A stretch of DNA of 36,019 nucleotides. Source: a virus (Duplodnaviria; Heunggongvirae; Uroviricota; Caudoviricetes). The number at the start of each line of letters is the position of its first letter. Within the stretch, counting starts at the first letter, position 1. Positions 1-24,925 of this stretch are shown in pieces. Below the pieces are notes generated by a model, which was not told the DNA's origin, made no database searches, and saw only the letters and a list, made by a program, of their open reading frames with translations. Both the position numbers and the translations under genes were made by a program. The stretch lies in the IMG/VR virus record IMGVR_UViG_2537561980_000006; one strand, 5' to 3'.

Positions 1-901
1 AGCAAAAACGACTTATGGTATTGCGAGCTTCAGTCGCACTACACGGTCGTTCTGTTACTCTTTATGAGAAAGCGTTCCCGCTTTCAGAGCAATGTTCAAA
101 GAAAGCTCATGACCAATTTCTAGCCGACCTTGCGAGCATTCTACCGAGTAACACCACACCGCTCATTGTCAGTGATGCTGGCTTTAAAGTGCCATGGTAT
201 AAATCCGTTGAGAAGCTGGGTTGGTACTGGTTAAGTCGAGTAAGAGGAAAAGTACAATATGCAGACCTAGGAGCGGAAAACTGGAAACCTATCAGCAACT
301 TACATGATATGTCATCTAGTCACTCAAAGCTTTAGGCTATAAGAGGCTGACTAAAAGCAATCCAATCTCATGCCAAATTCTATTGTATAAATCTCGCTCT
401 AAAGGCCGAAAAAATCAGCGCTCGACACGGACTCATTGTCACCACCCGTCACCTAAAATCTACTCAGCGTCGGCAAAGGAGCCATGGGTTCTAGCAACTA
501 ACTTACCTGTTGAAATTCGAACACCCAAACAACTTGTTAATATCTATTCGAAGCGAATGCAGATTGAAGAAACCTTCCGAGACTTGAAAAGTCCTGCCTA
601 CGGACTAGGCCTACGCCATAGCCGAACGAGCAGCTCAGAGCGTTTTGATATCATGCTGCTAATCGCCCTGATGCTTCAACTAACATGTTGGCTTGCGGGC
701 GTTCATGCTCAGAAACAAGGTTGGGACAAGCACTTCCAGGCTAACACAGTCAGAAATCGAAACGTACTCTCAACAGTTCGCTTAGGCATGGAAGTTTTGC
801 GGCATTCTGGCTACACAATAACAAGGGAAGACTTACTCGTGGCTGCAACCCTACTAGCTCAAAATTTATTCACACATGGTTACGCTTTGGGGAAATTATG
901 A
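1..901 (+). pseudogene. tnp: IS10 transposase, C-terminal ~300 codons, reading frame broken near 329-335
   Basis: Frame from nt 3 (..EQKRLMVLRAS..) hits TAG at 333-335; transposase sequence resumes in a different frame from 383 to stop 899-901. Segment lengths fit a 402-codon ORF missing one nucleotide. Confidence 0.75.
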
Positions 902-914
902 GGGGATCTCTCAG
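1..914 (+). mobile_element. IS10 (IS4 family) copy, left part cut by window edge; inside end at 914
   Basis: Transposase C-terminal coding sequence with DDE-type motifs (LIVSDAGF; YSKRMQIEETFRDLK = Y-2-R-3-E-6-K), then 13 nt ending GGGGATCTCTCAG, which matches the IS10 inside end as I remember it. Confidence 0.85.
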
Positions 915-1169
915 GATAAAGCTAGCATGCCAACGGTATACAGCGAGTCGCTCTTTGTGGAGGTGACGATTACCTAACAATCGGTCGATTCGTTTGATGT
1001 TATGTTTTGTTCTCGCTTTGGTTGGCAGGTTACGGCCAAGTTCGGTAAGAGTGAGAGTTTTACAGTCAAGTAATGCGTGGCAAGCCAACGTTAAGCTGTT
1101 GAGTCGTTTTAAGTGTAATTCGGGGCAGAATTGGTAAAGAGAGTCGTGTAAAATATCGAGTTCGCACAT
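915..1169 (-). pseudogene. tnp: IS10 transposase N-terminal fragment (85 codons), truncated at the IS junction
   Basis: ATG at 1169 (minus) encodes MCELDILHDSLYQFCPELHLKRLNSLTLACHALLDCK..WHASFI, then diverges where the other IS copy's end begins. Confidence 0.8.
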
Positions 1170-1230
1170 CTTGTTGTCTGATTATTGATTTTTCGCGAAA
1201 CCATTTGATCATATGACAAGATGTGTATCC
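1162..1230 (+). ncRNA. Predicted RNA-OUT antisense RNA of IS10 (position inferred from IS10 coordinates)
   Basis: Established IS10 biology: pOUT transcript starts ~nt 115 and runs toward the outside end, overlapping the transposase 5' end; mapped onto window coordinates, not independently detected. Confidence 0.4.
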
Positions 1231-1814
1231 ACCTTAACTTAATGATTTTTACCAAAATCATTAGGGGATTCATCAGTGCGGTGCCTGGTGCCTCCAGGTG
1301 ACGTTAACCAGTTAACAATTAACGCCGGATACAGAGAATCCACCCATAACACTGTTTTTGGTTTTAACTGTTCCGCGTGCGCTTAGCCGCATTCACCGCA
1401 TCACAAAATTCACTTTAAAAAGGGCGGCAGAGCAGTCACGGAGTAAAACTGATACCGCCAAACGTCACCAGAAAATTGATAACAGAGGGCGTTGCAGCGG
1501 GGTTGTCACTTAAGCGTATGGTCAACCTGACAACCAGGTGTCCTCAACGGGGAAGGAATAACCCCGCCATACTTACCGCCGCGCCATTTCGCGGAGTGCC
1601 ACAACCGGAAGCGCACGGCCGACGAAAATTTAACGACAGGCTATCTATGAACCAGCTACCTCGCCGTGCGCTTTCGCGTTATGGTCTGACTTTTCATGGA
1701 AATATCCTTTCAGTAAACTGTCAGTGCCGGATGCTCACCCGTGTCCGGCGCACGCACTCCACCTCACCCGTGGAGAACTCCTTAATTACCAACCTTAGCT
1801 TCGTTGGTTAGCTA

Positions 1815-6559: not shown

Positions 6560-6778
6560 ATGCCTACATTATTCAGAAAAGAATATCCGCGAAAAAGTAG
6601 AGCGACAGAATTTTTGTTTCTCATTCTGTTTATCGTGTTGATGATACCGATATCCCCGCTATTACTGGCCTGGATAATCGGAAAAGTAATTGAGCCCGTT
6701 ATTGAATTGTATAACGACGTTGTATGGGCCCCGTTCAACACACTGCACAATAAAATTAATCCGTATAAGGAAAACTGA
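6560..6778 (+). CDS. Hypothetical small membrane protein (72 aa)
   Basis: AAAGGAGAGTGAT RBS; long hydrophobic stretch FLFLILFIVLMIPISPLLLAWIIG. Confidence 0.5.
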   Translation: MPTLFRKEYPRKSRATEFLFLILFIVLMIPISPLLLAWIIGKVIEPVIELYNDVVWAPFNTLHNKINPYKEN

Positions 6779-6779
6779 T

Positions 6780-7043
6780 ATGGCAACTTTGACAAAAAAA
6801 GAACAGGCATGGTTGAACGAATTACAGGACGTCATTGATCGCTGTCCATCACCGAAAAAAATTGGCTTTTACACCATTGGCGATAAAAACATTTACCTGT
6901 ATGACCTACGCCGCATGGATGAAATCATGGAGGCTCTTGATAATCGTTCGTCGGTGGATTGGTGTGTTGCTGTTCATGATATGAATGCAGGGTTTGATGA
7001 AAAGATTTTGTTCCCCTCATCAGTTGAAAGCACTGCGGGTTAA
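6780..7043 (+). CDS. Hypothetical protein (87 aa)
   Basis: ATG at 6780 with AAGGA RBS, immediately after the upstream stop. Confidence 0.5.
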   Translation: MATLTKKEQAWLNELQDVIDRCPSPKKIGFYTIGDKNIYLYDLRRMDEIMEALDNRSSVDWCVAVHDMNAGFDEKILFPSSVESTAG

Positions 7044-7053
7044 GGAGTAACAC

Positions 7054-7398
7054 ATGACCACTTTTACCAGAGAGCAGTTAATAACTCACGCAGAGGAGAC
7101 TATTGAAGCACAGAGACTGTGCATACCAGGCACAATCGACCATGACATCATCCGCACATATAAAATGGATATTGCTGTTTTGGAAATCGCATTGGCATCG
7201 CTGGCAGCAGAGCCAGCCGGTAAATTGCATGAATACAAACCAGTGGGATATCAGCGTCTGGTCGACGAGTTAACCATGCTGGTAAAGCAGTTAACCTGGC
7301 AACTGAGGAAAGTGAAGCCGGACTGTAAATTGCCGGATAAGGCGATGGACTACCTGAAGCGGAACGAACTGATAAGCGCGGAGGATGTTTTGCGATGA
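7054..7398 (+). CDS. Hypothetical protein (114 aa)
   Basis: ORF with AAGGAG RBS (7043-7048). Confidence 0.55.
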
Positions 7399-7481
7399 CC
7401 TGGCCTGAAGCATTCACAACGGTAGGAATTGCAATGGCGGTGGCGCTGGTGGTGTATTCGATTTGCCGCTGGGGTTGACGA
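7395..7481 (+). CDS. Possible small hydrophobic peptide (28 aa)
   Basis: ATG overlapping the upstream stop; [27 protein letters not shown]; below the ORF-track size cutoff. Confidence 0.25.
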
Positions 7482-7504
7482 AAACGGAGGCACAAAGTTA
7501 TATT
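7475..7504 (+). promoter_or_regulatory. Candidate sigma70 promoter at the AT-rich island boundary
   Basis: TTGACG (7475-7480), 18-nt spacer, TATATT (7499-7504). Confidence 0.35.
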
Positions 7505-7508
7505 TTCT

Positions 7509-7543
7509 CTGTGTGGTCGGTAACTCGCCCACACAGTTTGTGT
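7509..7543 (+). promoter_or_regulatory. Inverted repeat / attenuator-like hairpin just downstream of the candidate promoter
   Basis: CTGTGTGG (7509-7516) and CCACACAG (7529-7536), 12-nt spacer, followed by TTTGTGTT. Confidence 0.35.
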
Positions 7544-7594
7544 TCGTAAAAATACCATGTTGTTAGAATGTCGTATGCGGATTCATAAGGATAA

Positions 7595-7888
7595 ATGATG
7601 AAATTCACAGGGCTACAGTCGTCAGCGTTACCTGATACTTCTGATTCAGTAAAAGAGTGTGTGAATCTCGGGCAGTGGATGCTGTTCAAATCTTATGCGC
7701 ATGAAGTAACCACAACATTTGAAGTGGTGTTTTTTCTGAAAACTGGCGATGAAATATTTGGTTTGAATGAAAGAGGGCAAATAACGTCCACCCAAATTAC
7801 TGAACATTTAAGCATCGATGAGCTTTTTTACTTTATTGATATACCAAAGCCACCATCTTTCAGTAATGCAATGCCTCCTAAATATTAA
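7595..7888 (+). CDS. Hypothetical protein (97 aa), first gene of AT-rich island operon
   Basis: ATG at 7595 after AAGGA; low GC; 40-nt gap to the next gene. Confidence 0.5.
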   Translation: MMKFTGLQSSALPDTSDSVKECVNLGQWMLFKSYAHEVTTTFEVVFFLKTGDEIFGLNERGQITSTQITEHLSIDELFYFIDIPKPPSFSNAMPPKY

Positions 7889-7928
7889 CAAAATTTTAAC
7901 TTAAAACATTCGAATCATAAGGATATGT

Positions 7929-8631
7929 ATGAGCCTTAGGTCTGAGCGTACGAAATGGGTTATGTTTTTGCCTTGTTCTAAAGAAGAAGTTGAATCGCGC
8001 CACGTTTTGGATATTGTTTTTGGCGTGCTATGTCTTGAGAAGGCCGGTATAAATCCACGAGACATATCAATATATATTGACAGCCCTAACAGGAATTTTG
8101 ATGATTTTTTTTTCATCAGCCTCGAAGTATCCTTATGCGTCAAAAGCATCAGCAGATTTCTTTAATGACTTGCGTGATAATAACTACAATAACATAGTAA
8201 TGTTTGTTACTGGTCATGGTTGCCCACAAGGACTGGATGCAAAAAATCCTATTACTCCTCATCAACTTCTCAAGGCTTTAAAAGGAGCACCTAATTTAAA
8301 CAATGCTATTGTTTATTTTGGACAGTGTTATGCAGGTACGTTCAATTTTGTTGGGGCGGGTAAAAGAAAGGATGGCGAGCCTGAGGTTGTTTTAATTGGG
8401 GCGACTAATCTTACTGAGAGTCTGAGTATAGCGACTACTGAAACGTTTCTTGATGGAGATGAATTTCCTTGGACGGCCAATATTTTTCTCCTTCATGTTT
8501 TTAAATGGATGTCAAAACCTTCTGATATAGATGGTGATGGCCGTTATACTGTAATGGATTCTTATAAGCATGCTGGTATTTTTACTAACTTTGTGAATAA
8601 AAAACAAAAACAGATATGTTTGGTGAGATAA
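7929..8631 (+). CDS. Putative clan CD (caspase-like) cysteine peptidase, reading frame interrupted at a T9 tract (8105-8113)
   Basis: Hydrophobic strand + His-Gly (NNIVMFVTGHG) and hydrophobic strand + Gln-Cys (NAIVYFGQCYAG) 37 residues apart; N-terminal strands lie in ORF 7929-8165 and the catalytic core in ORF 8077/8101-8631; losing one T fuses them. Confidence 0.45.
8105..8113. repeat. Homopolymeric T9 tract at the frame break of the caspase-like gene
   Basis: Nine consecutive T at the junction of the two overlapping ORFs. Confidence 0.9.
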
Positions 8632-8825
8632 TTAATATGCATGCAGAGTGTAATAAACTCATGGCACTGGCTTCTTCGGGGACAGGGAATTGGATAATTG
8701 ATACGACAAATGAGTTAAATTATAAAGCCAAAAAAACACAACTACAAAATTTATTGATTGCGCACCACACTCATCAAGAATGTTGGATATTAAATGCAAG
8801 ACCAGCGCAAAAAATTGAGTTTTGA
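8616..8825 (+). CDS. Hypothetical protein (62-69 aa), or frame-shifted C-terminal continuation of the caspase-like gene
   Basis: ORF in the frame of 7929; upstream frame ends at 8629-8631 just after an A6 tract (8599-8604); alternative start ATG 8637 with GGTGAG RBS. Confidence 0.35.
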   Translation: MFGEIINMHAECNKLMALASSGTGNWIIDTTNELNYKAKKTQLQNLLIAHHTHQECWILNARPAQKIEF

Positions 8826-9085
8826 CTAATCGTTATGTCAATTAATTACAATAACGACTTATCATGGTGAGCAAAAACGGTTTGCGGGAAAAGGAGAGTT
8901 AAGTAGAATTGCTGCGGGTGCTTGAGGCTATCTGCCTCGGGCATGAACACCAAAAGGCAGATAGAGAAAAGCCCCAGTTAACATTACGCGTCCTGCAAGA
9001 CGCTTAACATTAATCTGAGGCCCAATCTATGTCTCACAAATGTAGGTTAGCCTCTTACGTGCCGAAAGGCAAGGAGAAGCAGGCT

Positions 9086-9241
9086 ATGAAGCAGCAAAAG
9101 GCGATGTTAATCGCCCTGATCGTCATCTGTTTAACCGTCATAGTGACGGTACTGGTAACGAGGAAAGACCTCTGCGAGGTACGAATCCGAACCGGCCAGA
9201 CGGAGGTCGCTGTCTTCACAGCTTACGAACCTGAGGAGTAA
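9086..9241 (+). CDS. Hok/Gef-family type I toxin (51 aa)
   Basis: MKQQKAMLIALIVICLTVIVTVLVTRKDLCEVRIRTGQTEVAVFTAYEPEE: single TM helix and the conserved Hok C-terminal region; in-frame upstream extension from 9029. Confidence 0.8.
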   Translation: MKQQKAMLIALIVICLTVIVTVLVTRKDLCEVRIRTGQTEVAVFTAYEPEE

Positions 9242-9384: not shown

Positions 9385-9777
9385 ATGAAGAAACTTGTTT
9401 TAGTCGCAGGTGTAATGATTGCAACAGTAATGTTGGGAGGGTGTGCAGCAAAGGTCGATCCAGCGTTGAAAGCAGAAGCAATGAAGCCACTAACATGTAA
9501 TGATGAAAAGCAATGTGACTTTTATTGGAAACGAGCGCAATTCTGGTTGGCTAATAATTCCTCATGGAAAATTCAAACGGCGACAGACACGCTAATTTCC
9601 ACTTATAATCCCTCTCCAAATAGTCCATTCCTCGCTTATCAAGTGAGTAAAATGCCAAATGAAGATGGATCCTCAAGAATTTTCATCAAGCCTTTTTGCG
9701 ATAATATGTTTGGCTGTCAACCAAACCCCTATCAGGCAGTTGTTTCCTTTAAAAACTTCGTTAAAACAGGGCAGTAG
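9385..9777 (+). CDS. Lipoprotein (130 aa), AT-rich cargo gene
   Basis: Signal peptide with lipobox MLGG-C (Cys20); RBS GGGAG; five further Cys residues. Confidence 0.65.
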   Translation: MKKLVLVAGVMIATVMLGGCAAKVDPALKAEAMKPLTCNDEKQCDFYWKRAQFWLANNSSWKIQTATDTLISTYNPSPNSPFLAYQVSKMPNEDGSSRIFIKPFCDNMFGCQPNPYQAVVSFKNFVKTGQ

Positions 9778-13232: not shown

Positions 13233-13258
13233 AACCGCCTCTATCGGGCGGTTTTTTT
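13233..13258 (+). terminator. Intrinsic terminator
   Basis: AACCGCC-TCTATC-GGGCGGTT then T7. Confidence 0.6.
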
Positions 13259-21994: not shown

Positions 21995-22300
21995 ATGATG
22001 CCCACTCTGGAAGAGCTTCGTGTTCAGTGCCGGATTGATGATGACAATGAACAGGAGAATTCTCTTCTTATGATGTATCTGGCTGCTGCCAGGGAAGAGG
22101 CTGAAAAGTTTTTAAACCGGACGCTTTACGATGAAACTGTTTCTGAGCAGGATACGACCGGGCTTGTAATAACACCTCTGATAAAACTGCGTCTTATGCA
22201 ACTGGTTGGCTACTGGTACGAGAACAGGGAAATGCAGGATGCAGTGCCTGATTTTTTCTATACCGGACTGCGGATGTATCGATTTCATCCCGGAACATAG
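21995..22300 (+). CDS. Head-tail connector (gp6-like DNA packaging protein)
   Basis: 101 aa, position and size typical of HK97-like head completion genes. Confidence 0.55.
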   Translation: MMPTLEELRVQCRIDDDNEQENSLLMMYLAAAREEAEKFLNRTLYDETVSEQDTTGLVITPLIKLRLMQLVGYWYENREMQDAVPDFFYTGLRMYRFHPGT

Positions 22301-22308
22301 GAGGATTC

Positions 22309-22647
22309 ATGCAGGCAGGAAGATTACGTGATCGTGTGGTTATTCTGAATGCCACCACCGTTCGGTCTCCGTCAGGGCACCCTGTGGAAACAATGACGGA
22401 GGGGGCAACCATATGGGCAGAAGTTAAGGGGATCAGTGGCAGGGAGAGAATATCCGGAGGCGCAGAAACTGCTCAGGCTACAGTGAGGGTCTGGATGAGA
22501 TTCCGGCGAGATGTAACAGCAACTTCATGTCTGAAAGTGCTGACTGGTGCATTCAAAGGCGCGATTCTGAGTATAGACGGTCCGCCGATACCGGATGCTC
22601 GTGCCACACGGCTTGAGATACTCTGTTCTCAGAAGGGGAATGTGTGA
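22309..22647 (+). CDS. Head closure / head-tail adaptor protein
   Basis: 112 aa, RBS GGAGGA; gene order. Confidence 0.55.
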   Translation: MQAGRLRDRVVILNATTVRSPSGHPVETMTEGATIWAEVKGISGRERISGGAETAQATVRVWMRFRRDVTATSCLKVLTGAFKGAILSIDGPPIPDARATRLEILCSQKGNV

Positions 22648-23093
22648 TGGATTTCAGTCTTGATTTTTCAGGTCTGGCGGATATTGCACGGGATCTGGAG
22701 ACGCTCAGCAGGGCAGAAAACAATAAGGTACTGCGCGATGCCACCCGTGCCGGTGCTGAAGTTATGCGGGATGCAGTTGTTGAACGTGCGCCGGAGCGAA
22801 CCGGGAAACTGAAGAAAAATGTGGTTGTTCTCACTCAGCGTTCAAAGCGTCGGGGGGAAATTATCTCGGGTGTCCACATTCGTGGACGGAACCTGCGAAC
22901 CGGAAACAGTGATAACAGCATGAAAGCCAGTGATCCCCGAAATGCGTTTTACTGGCGCTTTGTGGAGCTGGGAACGATAAACATGCCCGCGCATCCGTTC
23001 ATTCGCCCGGCTTTCGATACGACAGAGGAACTGGCAGCACAGATTGCCATACAGCGAATGAATCAGGCTATTGATGAGGTCTTAAGTAAATGA
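22644..23093 (+). CDS. Tail component (HK97 gp10-like)
   Basis: 149 aa, overlapping starts and stops with neighbours. Confidence 0.55.
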   Translation: MMDFSLDFSGLADIARDLETLSRAENNKVLRDATRAGAEVMRDAVVERAPERTGKLKKNVVVLTQRSKRRGEIISGVHIRGRNLRTGNSDNSMKASDPRNAFYWRFVELGTINMPAHPFIRPAFDTTEELAAQIAIQRMNQAIDEVLSK

Positions 23094-23434
23094 GAGAGAC
23101 CACACTGTATTCCCTGCTGTCTCAACTGGCCGGAGGACAGGTTTATCCTTATGTGGTCCCGCTGACGGAGGGAAAGCCTGCGGTATCTCCGCCATGGCTG
23201 GTATTTTCTGTGGTGTCTGACACTGCGTCTGATGTGCTTGATGGTCAGGCTGAATCCAGAATTACCGTGCAGATCGATGTCTGGGCAACAGTACCTGATG
23301 ACGCAGATGATATCCGTGAGCAGGCGCTTGATGCGGTAAGGCAACTTGCACCCTCCGTTATTTCTAAAACTCAGGGTTATGATCCTGATTCCCGTCTGAG
23401 CAGAGCCACGCTTGAATTTCAGGTAATAGCCTGA
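23090..23434 (+). CDS. Tail completion / terminator protein
   Basis: 114 aa directly upstream of the major tail gene. Confidence 0.5.
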   Translation: MRETTLYSLLSQLAGGQVYPYVVPLTEGKPAVSPPWLVFSVVSDTASDVLDGQAESRITVQIDVWATVPDDADDIREQALDAVRQLAPSVISKTQGYDPDSRLSRATLEFQVIA

Positions 23435-23454
23435 GGTCGTTAATGATTTTACCC

Positions 23455-23477
23455 ACCCGCCGCTGGCGGGTTTTTTA
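23455..23477 (+). terminator. Intrinsic terminator upstream of the major tail gene
   Basis: CCCGC-CGCTG-GCGGG then T6. Confidence 0.55.
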
Positions 23478-23493
23478 TTTTCAGGAGACGAGT

Positions 23494-24198
23494 ATGTCCT
23501 CTAATTTTGAGCGTTCGCAACTGACGAAAATTATGATTTCGTCTGCACCGGTAACAGCAGAAACCCTGGATTCTGCCAGCTATCTTGGCCTGAGCTGTAC
23601 AATCAAAGAGGTGCAGTTTACCGCAGGACAAAAGCAGGATATTGATGTCACCACGCTGTGTTCTGTTGAGCAGGAAAATATTAACGGCCTTGGTGCCGCG
23701 TCAGAGATTTCCATGTCAGGCAACTTTTACCTCAATGCTGCCCAGAACGCGTTGCGCAGTGCCTATGACAATGACACCACGTATGGCTTTAAAGTTATTT
23801 TTCCGTCAGGCAACGGATTTACCTTTATGGCAGAGGTGCGTCAGCATACCTGGTCTGCAGGAACTAATGGTGTTGTGGCTGCAACGTTTTCCCTGCGCCT
23901 GAAAGGTAAACCTGTGCTGACGACAGAGCCGCTGAAAGTGAAGGTCGATTTAAACAGCACGCTGCAGGTTTCTGCCGGAGCGAAACTCGAAATGGTGGTT
24001 GAGGCTGCCGGTGGTGTGCCGCCTTATTCTTATGTCTGGAAGAAAGGTAGTTCTCCTGTTTCCGGACAGACGGCGGCAACATTCAGTAAGGCATCAGCAG
24101 CATCAGGTGATGCCGGTGCGTATACCTGCGAGATTTCTGATTCAGCAAGCCCTGTTAACAAGGTGACCTCCACTTCCTGCACTGTTACCGTCAGTTAA
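23494..24198 (+). CDS. Major tail protein with C-terminal Ig-like domain
   Basis: ATG after CAGGAGACG; C-terminal ~80 aa has Ig-like signature (..GGVPPYSYVWKKGSSPVSG..AGAYTCEISDSASP..). Confidence 0.75.
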   Translation: MSSNFERSQLTKIMISSAPVTAETLDSASYLGLSCTIKEVQFTAGQKQDIDVTTLCSVEQENINGLGAASEISMSGNFYLNAAQNALRSAYDNDTTYGFKVIFPSGNGFTFMAEVRQHTWSAGTNGVVAATFSLRLKGKPVLTTEPLKVKVDLNSTLQVSAGAKLEMVVEAAGGVPPYSYVWKKGSSPVSGQTAATFSKASAASGDAGAYTCEISDSASPVNKVTSTSCTVTVS

Positions 24199-24212
24199 TG
24201 AGGATAGATGTG

Positions 24213-24584
24213 ATGACTAAAAATATCCGCAATCTGGCACTGGCAACGATGTCGGGGTTTCGCCATAAAACTGTTGATGTGCCTGAATGGGAAGGGGCAA
24301 CGGTTGTATTACGGGAACCTTCTGCAGAAGCCTGGTTGCGCTGGCAGGAGATCGTTAAAGCAAAAGATGATGAGACACCGTTATCCGTTGCGGAGCGCGC
24401 CCGCCGAAATCTGGAGGCAGATGTTGAACTATTCATTGATGTTCTGTGTGATACCGGACTGCAACCTGTATTTTCAGAGGATGATCGTGAACAGGTGATT
24501 GCCGTGTATGGCCCGGTGCATGCGCGGCTTCTTCGGCAGTCTCTGGAACTGATCAGTGATGCCGGCGAGGTTAAAAAAAAGTAG
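24213..24584 (+). CDS. Tail assembly chaperone G
   Basis: ORF ending ..GEVKKK at the slippery site; RBS GAGGA; ORF is open from 24198. Confidence 0.7.
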   Translation: MTKNIRNLALATMSGFRHKTVDVPEWEGATVVLREPSAEAWLRWQEIVKAKDDETPLSVAERARRNLEADVELFIDVLCDTGLQPVFSEDDREQVIAVYGPVHARLLRQSLELISDAGEVKKK

Positions 24585-24886
24585 CGCTTCCGGGGATGCG
24601 TTTTCTGATGATGCTGGCGCTCAGGATGGGGCGCACATTGTCAGAGTTACGCCGGGAAATGTCCGCATCAGAAATCATGATGTGGGCAGAATTTGACAGG
24701 TTCAGCCCGCTGGGTGACGAGCGGGCTGATATCCGGGCTGCCCAGATAGTTTCTGCGGTTTACGGTGCGCAGGGTGTCAAAGTCCCACTGAATGATGCGC
24801 TTCTTCAGTGGGAACAAGAGCAGACAGAAGGCGTCTCAGATCCATTTGCCGGACTGGAAAACGCGCTTTTAATAGTGTCTCAGTGA
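24213..24886 (+). CDS. Tail assembly chaperone GT (product of -1 programmed frameshift)
   Basis: Downstream ORF (to 24886) lies in the -1 frame relative to G and resembles lambda T; slippery A_AAA_AAG at the G terminus. Confidence 0.6.
24575..24581 (+). promoter_or_regulatory. Slippery heptamer A_AAA_AAG for -1 ribosomal frameshift
   Basis: In the G frame, codons AAA AAG precede TAG; a -1 shift enters the T frame. Confidence 0.6.
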
Positions 24887-24894
24887 GTCAACAT

Positions 24895-24916
24895 AACCGC
24901 TTCGGCGGTTTTTTTC
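24895..24916 (+). terminator. Intrinsic terminator-like hairpin between GT and tape measure genes
   Basis: AACCGC-TTCG-GCGGTT then T7. Confidence 0.5.
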
Positions 24917-24925
24917 GTCCGGAGA

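What the first reader, a model, noticed from the sequence alone, without database searches (positions are those of the whole stretch)
8105..8113. Caspase-like gene is split at a T9 homopolymer, with a second break at an A-tract
ORF 7929-8165 and ORF 8077-8631 overlap in different frames exactly across a run of nine T; removing one T yields a single ~233-aa protein. The downstream ORF 8616-8825 sits in the frame of 7929, and the middle frame ends just after an A6 tract (8599-8604). Possible explanations are slipped-strand phase variation (a contingency locus), pseudogenisation, or homopolymer sequencing error.
Basis: seen in the sequence. Interest (0 to 1): 0.6.

Follow-up and report, generated by a model that had tools for sequence, protein, structure and literature searches.

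The report
Frameshifted legumain-like protease gene in prophage
Three small ORFs are the pieces of one conserved 298-residue legumain/caspase-fold protease gene on an E. coli prophage, broken by one-base length changes in two homopolymer runs: an ordinary dead gene or a sequencing miscall, not a genetic switch.

The parts
7598..7888 (+). Small partner gene (96 aa; WP_236293809.1), first gene of the conserved two-gene cassette. It ends in an invariant D-[IL]-P-x-P-x-S-L-S-N motif.
   Evidence: A homologue of 92-119 aa lies 5-57 nt upstream on the same strand in 15 of 15 orthologous loci that have upstream sequence. Conservation is shown. No Pfam or PADLOC hit. No fold match.
7929..8825 (+). The whole disrupted gene for a legumain-like clan CD cysteine peptidase (298 aa when T8/A7 are restored).
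   Evidence: Intact 897-nt gene in 14EC029, ETEC1747 and others. Family alignment. Fold.
7929..8165 (+). Fragment 1: residues 1-60 of the peptidase (strand 1, helix 1 with the R24-H25-x-x-D28 motif, strand 2), followed by 18 out-of-frame codons.
8105..8113 (+). T9 run. It is T8 (codons D-F-F-S) in intact alleles, T7 in ETEC1731 and strain 0-4, and T9 also in ETEC4085 and in Logan contig ERR5386542.
8101..8631 (+). Fragment 2, annotated as EIQ65429.1 / ECEPECA12_1316 (176 aa from ATG 8101; the mechanical ORF starts at TTG 8077). It holds the catalytic His96 (8215-8217) and Cys133 (8326-8328) but lacks the N-terminal strands and helix.
   Evidence: secondary structure
8599..8604 (+). A6 run. It is A7 (codons N-K-K-T) in intact alleles, A6 also in DEC7D, and A8 in SRR30307702 and in the 91% lineage.
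8616..8825 (+). Fragment 3: the C-terminal 69 residues (end of the helical hairpin plus the conserved HQECWILN..PAQ.IEF tail), in the frame of fragment 1.
8730..8736 (+). Third homopolymer (A7) of the gene. It is intact here and A6 in CV839-06, where it truncates the protein.

Best explanation
This is one gene, not three. It encodes a 298-aa cytoplasmic cysteine peptidase of the caspase/legumain fold (clan CD, nearest family C13). It is the second gene of a conserved two-gene cassette carried as a moron between the replication/nin-type genes and hokD of a lambdoid prophage at the tRNA-Ser/mtfA site of E. coli EPECa12. In this copy the two most slippage-prone runs have each changed by one base: T8 to T9 at codon 60 and A7 to A6 at codon 225. 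The T9 change cuts strand 1, helix 1 and the Arg-His S1 motif away from the catalytic His96/Cys133. The A6 change removes the conserved C-terminal tail. The gene as deposited is therefore a non-functional pseudogene. I take the lesions to be unprogrammed replication-slippage mutations that accumulated in a decaying prophage. In that prophage the left arm is replaced by IS10, gpJ is frameshifted, and the integrase is annotated as frameshifted in all four near-identical relatives (the window itself does not contain it). The gene is also recurrently lost in E. coli. Shown: one gene, its fold, the catalytic motifs, the position and effect of both lesions, and the allele distribution. Inferred: that the lesions are biological rather than technical, and that the loss is neutral or favoured.
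For: Intact T8/A7/A7 alleles occur in 7 of the 12 complete E. coli genomes that carry the gene, and the exact intact protein is on 90 contigs. An independent k-mer re-assembly of run SRR063724, which I take to be the strain's own reads, gives the identical T9/A6 sequence over 2408 nt. The T9 allele also occurs in Logan contig ERR5386542 (2 samples; identical to the window over 1565 nt except A7) and in ETEC4085. A6 occurs in DEC7D. A8 occurs in SRR30307702 and in the 91% lineage on 3 contigs. Unambiguous lesions hit the same gene elsewhere: IS1 in STEC409 and in strain 0-4, a non-homopolymer frameshift at the catalytic His (P0131), and N-terminal deletion fusions (P0126, P0142). Within the EPECa12 clone, which shares SNP 9405, the alleles nest as intact (L041), A6 (DEC7D) and A6+T9 (window). 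This fits a simple tree. A second split, in gpJ at 30813, lies in a 3-base run where miscalls are unlikely, and it recurs in a 3%-diverged metagenome scaffold.
Against: A sibling assembly of the same clone (L041/L091) differs from the window by 8 one-base indels but only 3 substitutions over 23.7 kb. Another sibling (L043/DEC7D) differs by 2 indels and 0 substitutions over 10.3 kb. The window lineage itself has 1 private substitution against 2 private indels plus T9 in 24 kb. From memory of E. coli mutation-accumulation data, indels are about a tenth as frequent as substitutions, so this excess looks technical unless the clone is a mutator. T7 and T9 in the complete genomes occur mainly in Nanopore R9.4.1-only assemblies. 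The SRR063724 re-assembly uses the same reads, so it does not exclude platform bias. The sequencing platform of EPECa12 could not be established.
Confidence: 0.5

Rival explanations
1. Homopolymer miscalls. The strain really carries T8/A7 and an intact gene, and the 2012 draft assembly (possibly pyrosequencing) over-called the 8-mer and under-called the 7-mer.
For: The two changes sit in the longest and among the longest runs of the gene, and T8/T9 is the longest run in the window. Clone siblings show 0 mismatches over the gene-proximal 10-12 kb but differ at 2661, 8105, 8599, 9996 and 13573. Over the tail region 22245-33602, L091 shows 3 substitutions and 4 more one-base indels (24573, 30813, 31866, 31869). 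Each assembly has its own private homopolymer changes. All one-base indels among five near-identical prophages lie in runs of 5 or more, except 30813. Indels outnumber substitutions in the window lineage. The ETEC assemblies that show T7 and T9 are Nanopore-only, which shows that this tract is a technical hotspot.
Against: A separate assembler on the same reads gives the same T9/A6, so the read majority supports both. That requires one over-call and one under-call to win the consensus within 500 nt. A6 is shared with DEC7D, and T9 with an unrelated run. The 30813 change is not a long homopolymer and recurs in a metagenome. The gene is demonstrably decaying in other strains.
Confidence: 0.38
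2. Slipped-strand phase variation. The T run is a contingency tract that switches the peptidase ON (T8) and OFF (T7/T9) reversibly at high frequency.
For: T7, T8 and T9 alleles, and A6, A7 and A8 alleles, all exist among near-identical prophages. The tract lies early in the ORF.
Against: Homopolymer content equals the synonymous-shuffle expectation (P = 0.61). The T run at this position is absent from all 15 orthologues examined, and only one of the two Phe residues is conserved. This copy has two frameshifts and strain 0-4 has T7 plus IS1, so a single slip cannot restore function. Part of the allele variation is confounded with error-prone platforms. From general knowledge, 8-9-nt runs in mismatch-repair-proficient E. 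coli slip far more rarely than classical contingency loci.
Confidence: 0.05
3. Recoding. The T9 allele is still partly expressed, because RNA polymerase slips on runs of about 9 T (as reported for Shigella mxiE, from memory) or the ribosome frameshifts, giving some full-length protein. Alternatively the ORFs are separate functional genes.
For: T9 reaches the run length at which transcriptional slippage is known in enterobacteria (my knowledge, not tested here). PGAP annotates the downstream part of the T9 allele as a 241-aa protein in ETEC4085.
Against: The second break, at A6, is too short for such rescue. No homologue is encoded as separate ORFs. A product starting at 8101 lacks invariant T8, W10, R24, H25, D28, Y49 and D51, as well as strand 1, helix 1 and strand 2 of the fold.
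Confidence: 0.03

Closest known systems
Legumain / asparaginyl endopeptidase family (MEROPS C13, Pfam PF01650), clan CD
   Different: The sequence match is below Pfam's threshold (12.8 against 22.8 bits). The protein is much smaller (298 aa) and bacterial. No signal-peptide or localisation analysis was run, so the cytoplasmic location is my assumption. It carries family-specific invariant motifs (D199-x-D-G-D-G and the C-terminal HQECWILN..PAQ). It is always paired with a 93-aa partner gene. Activity and specificity are untested.
Caspases and metacaspases (C14), and bacterial caspase-like or CHAT immune proteases (gasdermin-associated proteases, SAVED-CHAT, the type IV Thoeris caspase-like effector)
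   Different: No C14 or CHAT sequence match. No PADLOC hit for it or for three diverse homologues. The partner is not a TIR, gasdermin, SAVED or CRISPR component.
Homopolymer frameshift pseudogenes, and homopolymer miscalls in pyrosequencing or Nanopore assemblies
   Same: A one-base change in the longest runs of an AT-rich (36.9% GC) gene, with intact alleles in close relatives. The same tract varies in Nanopore-only genomes.
   Different: Nothing unusual. The only notable point is that two tracts are hit in one gene and that the alleles recur in several datasets.
Phase-variable contingency loci (Haemophilus, Neisseria, Campylobacter type)
   Same: A mononucleotide run inside the 5' part of an ORF, with length polymorphism between isolates.
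   Different: The tract is not conserved and not enriched. There are double lesions, IS insertions and deletions in the same gene. The organism is not known for mononucleotide phase variation.

Membership tests
Clan CD cysteine peptidase (caspase/legumain fold) | Caspase-haemoglobinase alpha/beta fold | tested here: met
Clan CD cysteine peptidase (caspase/legumain fold) | Catalytic His-Gly and (Ala/Gln)-Cys, each after a block of hydrophobic strand residues | tested here: met
   IVMFVTGHG (H96-G97) and AIVYFGQC (Q132-C133) are invariant in 45 sequences. They lie at the ends of strands 88-93 and 125-130 and align to the legumain catalytic His and Cys.
Clan CD cysteine peptidase (caspase/legumain fold) | Proteolytic activity | not testable with these tools
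   Needs enzyme assays, or the phenotype of a C133A mutant.
Legumain family C13 (Pfam PF01650) | Score above the Pfam gathering threshold | tested here: not met
   12.8 bits against a cut-off of 22.8, E 0.088. A few homologues carry a precomputed PF01650 hit. Profile against PDB: best hit E 9.7e-4 to asparaginyl endopeptidase, and all 17 hits are C13.
Legumain family C13 (Pfam PF01650) | Arg-His S1-pocket motif (RHQAD) after strand 1 | tested here: met
   Invariant R24, H25 and D28 align to legumain R-H-Q-A-D in the HMMER alignment. Asn/Asp specificity itself was not tested.
Caspase / metacaspase family C14 | Sequence match to Peptidase_C14 or CHAT models | tested here: not met
   The only Pfam hit is the weak C13 one.
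Phase-variable contingency locus | Repeat tract in the ORF whose length varies between isolates | tested here: inconclusive
   T7/T8/T9 and A6/A7/A8 alleles exist. Several come from Nanopore-only or old draft assemblies.
Phase-variable contingency locus | Tract maintained or enriched beyond what composition and coding give | tested here: not met
   Synonymous shuffles: P = 0.61 for runs of 7 or more, and 63% of shuffles hold a run of 8 or more. There is no run at this position in 15 orthologues.
Phase-variable contingency locus | A single reversible slip restores the ON state | tested here: not met
   The window has two independent frameshifts. T9 to T8 alone gives a 233-aa protein that lacks the conserved C-terminus.
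Phase-variable contingency locus | High-frequency switching within a clonal population | not testable with these tools
   Needs read pileups or amplicon sequencing.
Pseudogene | Intact full-length orthologues exist, and the local copy has disabling lesions that remove essential residues | tested here: met
Pseudogene | Lesions present in the organism's DNA, not only in the assembly | tested here: inconclusive
   The re-assembly of SRR063724 agrees, but the platform is unknown and sibling assemblies differ only at homopolymers.
Known anti-phage defence systems (PADLOC-DB 2.0) | Match to any model of a known or candidate system | tested here: not met
   No hit for the peptidase, three diverse homologues or the partner.

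The most novel reading that the evidence does not exclude
The split gene belongs to an undescribed, widely spread two-gene cassette: a 93-aa protein plus a legumain-like peptidase, found in Enterobacteriaceae, Vibrio, Pseudomonas, Xanthomonas, Lysobacter, Burkholderia, Bordetella and Chromobacterium. In this reading the peptidase keeps a legumain-type Arg-His S1 pocket and acts on its partner at the invariant Asn of the C-terminal ...P-x-S-L-S-N motif, exactly where conservation of the partner stops. The cassette would then be a protease-gated toxin or abortive-infection/defence module. Its cost would explain why the peptidase, but not the partner, is knocked out in 5 of the 12 complete E. coli genomes that carry it, and in this window.
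Probability: 0.2. Interest if true: 0.6.

Novelty: new member of a known kind. Interest (0 to 1): 0.22.

Why it matters
The split itself matters little. It is either a routine pseudogene or a routine homopolymer error, and it should not be catalogued as a phase-variable locus or as three hypothetical proteins, which is how the GenBank record treats it. The practical lesson concerns homopolymer-length differences between near-identical prophages. In old drafts and Nanopore-only genomes these dominate over substitutions, so they cannot be read as biology without reads. The by-product could be worth following. It is a compact, strongly conserved, unannotated cassette of a small protein plus a legumain-fold peptidase on mobile elements. 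It matches no known defence or toxin-antitoxin model and is repeatedly inactivated in E. coli.

Tried and rejected
- **Annotation searches of the fragments and the repaired protein.** Pfam, PHROGs, PADLOC and PDB sequence searches gave only a sub-threshold C13 hit.
- **'Separate genes'.** Rejected: every homologue is a single ORF.
- **'Caspase (C14)' as the family.** Rejected in favour of legumain-like.
- **Genome-contig scan with the single protein.** Found nothing. The alignment-based scan gave 18 loci.
- **Metagenome-contig scan for the T tract.** 0 hits.
- **tblastn against 50,697 phage records.** No match, so the cassette is not seen in isolated phages.
- **Sequencing platform of EPECa12, DEC7D and SRR063724.** Not found in the literature. 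My suspicion of pyrosequencing is unverified.
- **L017.** It looked like another broken copy because only the 69-aa piece is on record, but the gene there is intact.
- **Link to type IV Thoeris (TIR + caspase-like).** Considered and dropped: the partner is not a TIR protein.
- **Conserved neighbours.** Beyond the partner gene, no third conserved neighbour was found. Flanks are heterogeneous: phage-like genes in Vibrio, an integrase in Kluyvera, housekeeping genes elsewhere.

Full report
**Observation.** The sequence is as described. T9 lies at 8105-8113. ORF 7929-8165 and ORF 8077-8631 overlap across it in different frames. ORF 8616-8825 is back in the frame of 7929. An A6 run at 8599-8604 precedes the end of the middle frame. 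T9 is the longest homopolymer in the 36-kb window; the only other run of 8 or more is A8 at 24573-24580.

**Identity of the window.** The middle ORF read from ATG 8101 is exactly EIQ65429.1 (ECEPECA12_1316). The window is the whole contig AKNH01000025.1 of assembly GCA_000268125.1, E. coli EPECa12. It is a lambdoid prophage. In near-identical relatives this prophage sits at the tRNA-Ser/mtfA site. Window 1-1276 is IS10/ISVsa5 and replaces the left arm. The split gene lies between small replication/nin-region genes and hokD.

**One gene.**
- Twelve of 5426 complete E. coli genomes carry the region.
- In seven of them the locus is a single 897-nt gene with T8, A7 and A7 at the three long runs. 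These are WP_000058713/4 in the 99.8% lineage and WP_000058712 in a 91% lineage.
- The window differs by +1 T and -1 A.
- A database search with the repaired protein gave 220 hits. The 120 listed are single proteins of about 292-348 aa, nearly all covering 99-100% of the query. They come from Enterobacteriaceae, Vibrio, Pseudomonas, Xanthomonas, Burkholderia, Cupriavidus and others.
- The 'separate genes' reading is therefore excluded.

**What the gene encodes.**
- Sequence libraries give only a sub-threshold Peptidase_C13 hit (12.8 bits against a cut-off of 22.8). PADLOC, PHROGs and PDB sequence searches give nothing useful.
- An AlphaFold2 model built from a 45-sequence alignment is confident (pLDDT 92.6, pTM 0.89).
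- H96-G97 and Q132-C133 are invariant and follow strands 88-93 and 125-130.
- A family profile searched against PDB sequences hits only C13 enzymes (best E 9.7e-4). It aligns R24-H25-x-x-D28 to the legumain RHQAD motif and the His and Cys to the legumain catalytic residues.
- After the catalytic domain come a long helical hairpin (208-280) and an invariant tail, HQECWILN..PAQ.IE.
- 'Caspase-like' is thus right at fold level. 'Legumain-like' is more exact, and formal Pfam membership is not met.

**Effect of the lesions.**
- T9 shifts the frame at codon 60. Fragment 1 keeps strand 1, helix 1 (with R24/H25/D28) and strand 2. Fragment 2 keeps His96 (8215-8217) and Cys133 (8326-8328) but lacks ten invariant N-terminal residues.
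- A6 shifts the frame at codon 225 and removes the tail.
- Reverting T9 alone gives a 233-aa truncation, which exists as WP_024183986.1 in DEC7D.
- As deposited, the gene is dead.

**Is it a contingency locus?**
- The intact gene is AT-rich (36.9% GC against 50.8% for the window).
- Its homopolymer load matches expectation. Runs of 7 or more number 3 observed against a mean of 2.77 in 5000 synonymous shuffles (P = 0.61). A run of 8 or more appears in 63% of shuffles.
- In 15 orthologues from other genera there is no run at this position. At the protein level only one of the two Phe residues of D-F-F-S is conserved.
- This copy has two lesions, and strain 0-4 has T7 plus an IS1 insertion. That pattern is decay, not switching.
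- I rate phase variation at about 5%.

**Real mutation or miscall? Evidence for real mutation.**
- A Logan re-assembly of run SRR063724 is identical to the window over 6601-9008, including T9 and A6.
- T9 with A7 occurs in Logan contig ERR5386542 (two samples) and in ETEC4085.
- A6 with T8 occurs in DEC7D.
- A8 occurs in SRR30307702 and, in the 91% lineage, on three contigs.
- Lesions that cannot be sequencing errors hit the same gene: IS1 in STEC409 and in strain 0-4, a frameshift at the catalytic His (P0131), and deletion fusions (P0126, P0142).
- Five of the 12 complete genomes carry a disrupted copy.
- Within the EPECa12 clone, which shares the private SNP at 9405 and T7 at 13251, the alleles nest as intact (L041), A6 (DEC7D) and A6+T9 (window).
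- The window's other split gene is gpJ, where GGG became GG at 30813, giving ORFs 30545-30826 and 30823-33939. This is not in a long run, and it recurs in a metagenome scaffold of 96.9% identity. However, 0 of 120 IMG/VR contigs have it.

**Real mutation or miscall? Evidence for a miscall.**
- Sibling L041/L091 (IMG 2531839448) differs from the window by 8 one-base indels and 3 substitutions over 23.7 kb.
- DEC7D differs from the window by 2 indels and 0 substitutions over 10.3 kb.
- Each sibling assembly has private homopolymer changes.
- In 1277-25500 the window lineage has 1 private substitution against 2 private indels plus T9.
- Among five near-identical prophages every one-base indel except 30813 lies in a run of 5 or more.
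- The complete genomes with T7 and T9 come mainly from a study that used Nanopore R9.4.1 reads only, with Bonito, Trycycler and medaka and no short-read polishing (PMC10151945).
- From memory of E. coli mutation-accumulation work, indels are roughly ten-fold rarer than substitutions. The observed excess therefore points to technical error or to a mutator lineage.
- I could not establish the platform of EPECa12.
- I weigh real decay at about 0.5 and artefact at about 0.4. Only the reads can decide.

**The cassette.** In 15 of the 15 orthologous loci that have upstream sequence, a 92-119-aa ORF lies 5-57 nt upstream on the same strand. It is homologous to window 7598-7888 (35-51% identity, E 1e-16 to 1e-29). 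The genera are Xanthomonas, Burkholderia, Vibrio, Pseudomonas, Lysobacter, Pandoraea, Duganella, Herbaspirillum, Kluyvera, Bordetella, Luteibacter, Chromobacterium and Enterobacter. No other neighbour is conserved, and the flanks vary from phage-like or integrase genes to housekeeping genes. The partner has no Pfam, PADLOC or fold match. Its conservation ends at an invariant Asn in the motif ...D-[IL]-P-x-P-x-S-L-S-N. Given the legumain-type S1 motif of the peptidase, I infer that the partner may be bound or cleaved there. This was not tested. The cassette is absent from 50,697 phage records.

**Verdict.** The split is an unprogrammed one-base change at two slippage-prone and error-prone runs. 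It is either true decay of a repeatedly lost moron in a degrading prophage or homopolymer miscalling, and it is not phase variation. Interest in the split is low. The uncharacterised two-gene cassette is the only part worth following.

Noticed in passing
window 7598-8825; loci L019-L036: A conserved, unannotated two-gene cassette: a protein of about 93 aa sits directly upstream of the legumain-like peptidase in 15 of 15 loci from 13 genera. Conservation of the partner stops at an invariant Asn (…PxSLSN). The peptidase keeps the legumain R-H-x-x-D S1 motif.
   Followed up: partly
window 30545-33939 (break at 30813): The tail-tip gene gpJ is split into 93-aa and 1038-aa ORFs by GGG to GG. The window is alone in this among 4 close relatives, a clone sibling and 120 IMG/VR contigs. 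The same break with the same 93-aa product is in ENA metagenome scaffold L038 (96.9% identical; all 9 in-ORF differences are synonymous).
   Followed up: partly
window 24570-24584: GTT AAA AAA AAG TAG at the end of the tail assembly chaperone gene. The A AAA AAG heptamer leads by a -1 shift into the frame of the downstream T ORF (24596-24886), which is the classic G/GT programmed frameshift site. The run is A7 in ETEC1747, ETEC4085 and L091, where PGAP calls the gene incomplete.
   Followed up: partly
window 1-1276: An IS10/ISVsa5 (IS4-family) copy abuts the prophage at 1277 and replaces the integrase/exonuclease arm present in the relatives. The contig ends inside it.
   Followed up: partly
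window 1277-36019 against L041/L091 and L043: Three assemblies of one clone (EPECa12, DEC7D, IMG 2531839448) differ almost only by one-base homopolymer indels (8 indels against 3 substitutions, and 2 against 0). This is either a platform artefact or a mutator lineage.
   Followed up: partly
window 13251: The intergenic run after GGGCGG (terminator-like, between the tRNA cluster and the holin gene) is T7 here and in sibling L041 but T8 in four relatives. It looks like a clone marker.
   Followed up: no
window 9029-9241: A hokD-type type I toxin gene lies immediately downstream of the cassette, as in all relatives.
   Followed up: no
L009 (STEC409) and L015 (strain 0-4): Two independent IS1 insertions (IS1A and IS1B; different positions, orientations and lineages) in the peptidase gene. 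Strain 0-4 also has T7.
   Followed up: yes
relatives L005-L008, locus coordinates 7748-8798: The prophage integrase is annotated as frameshifted in all four near-identical complete genomes, including the non-Nanopore ones. This suggests the element is already defective.
   Followed up: no
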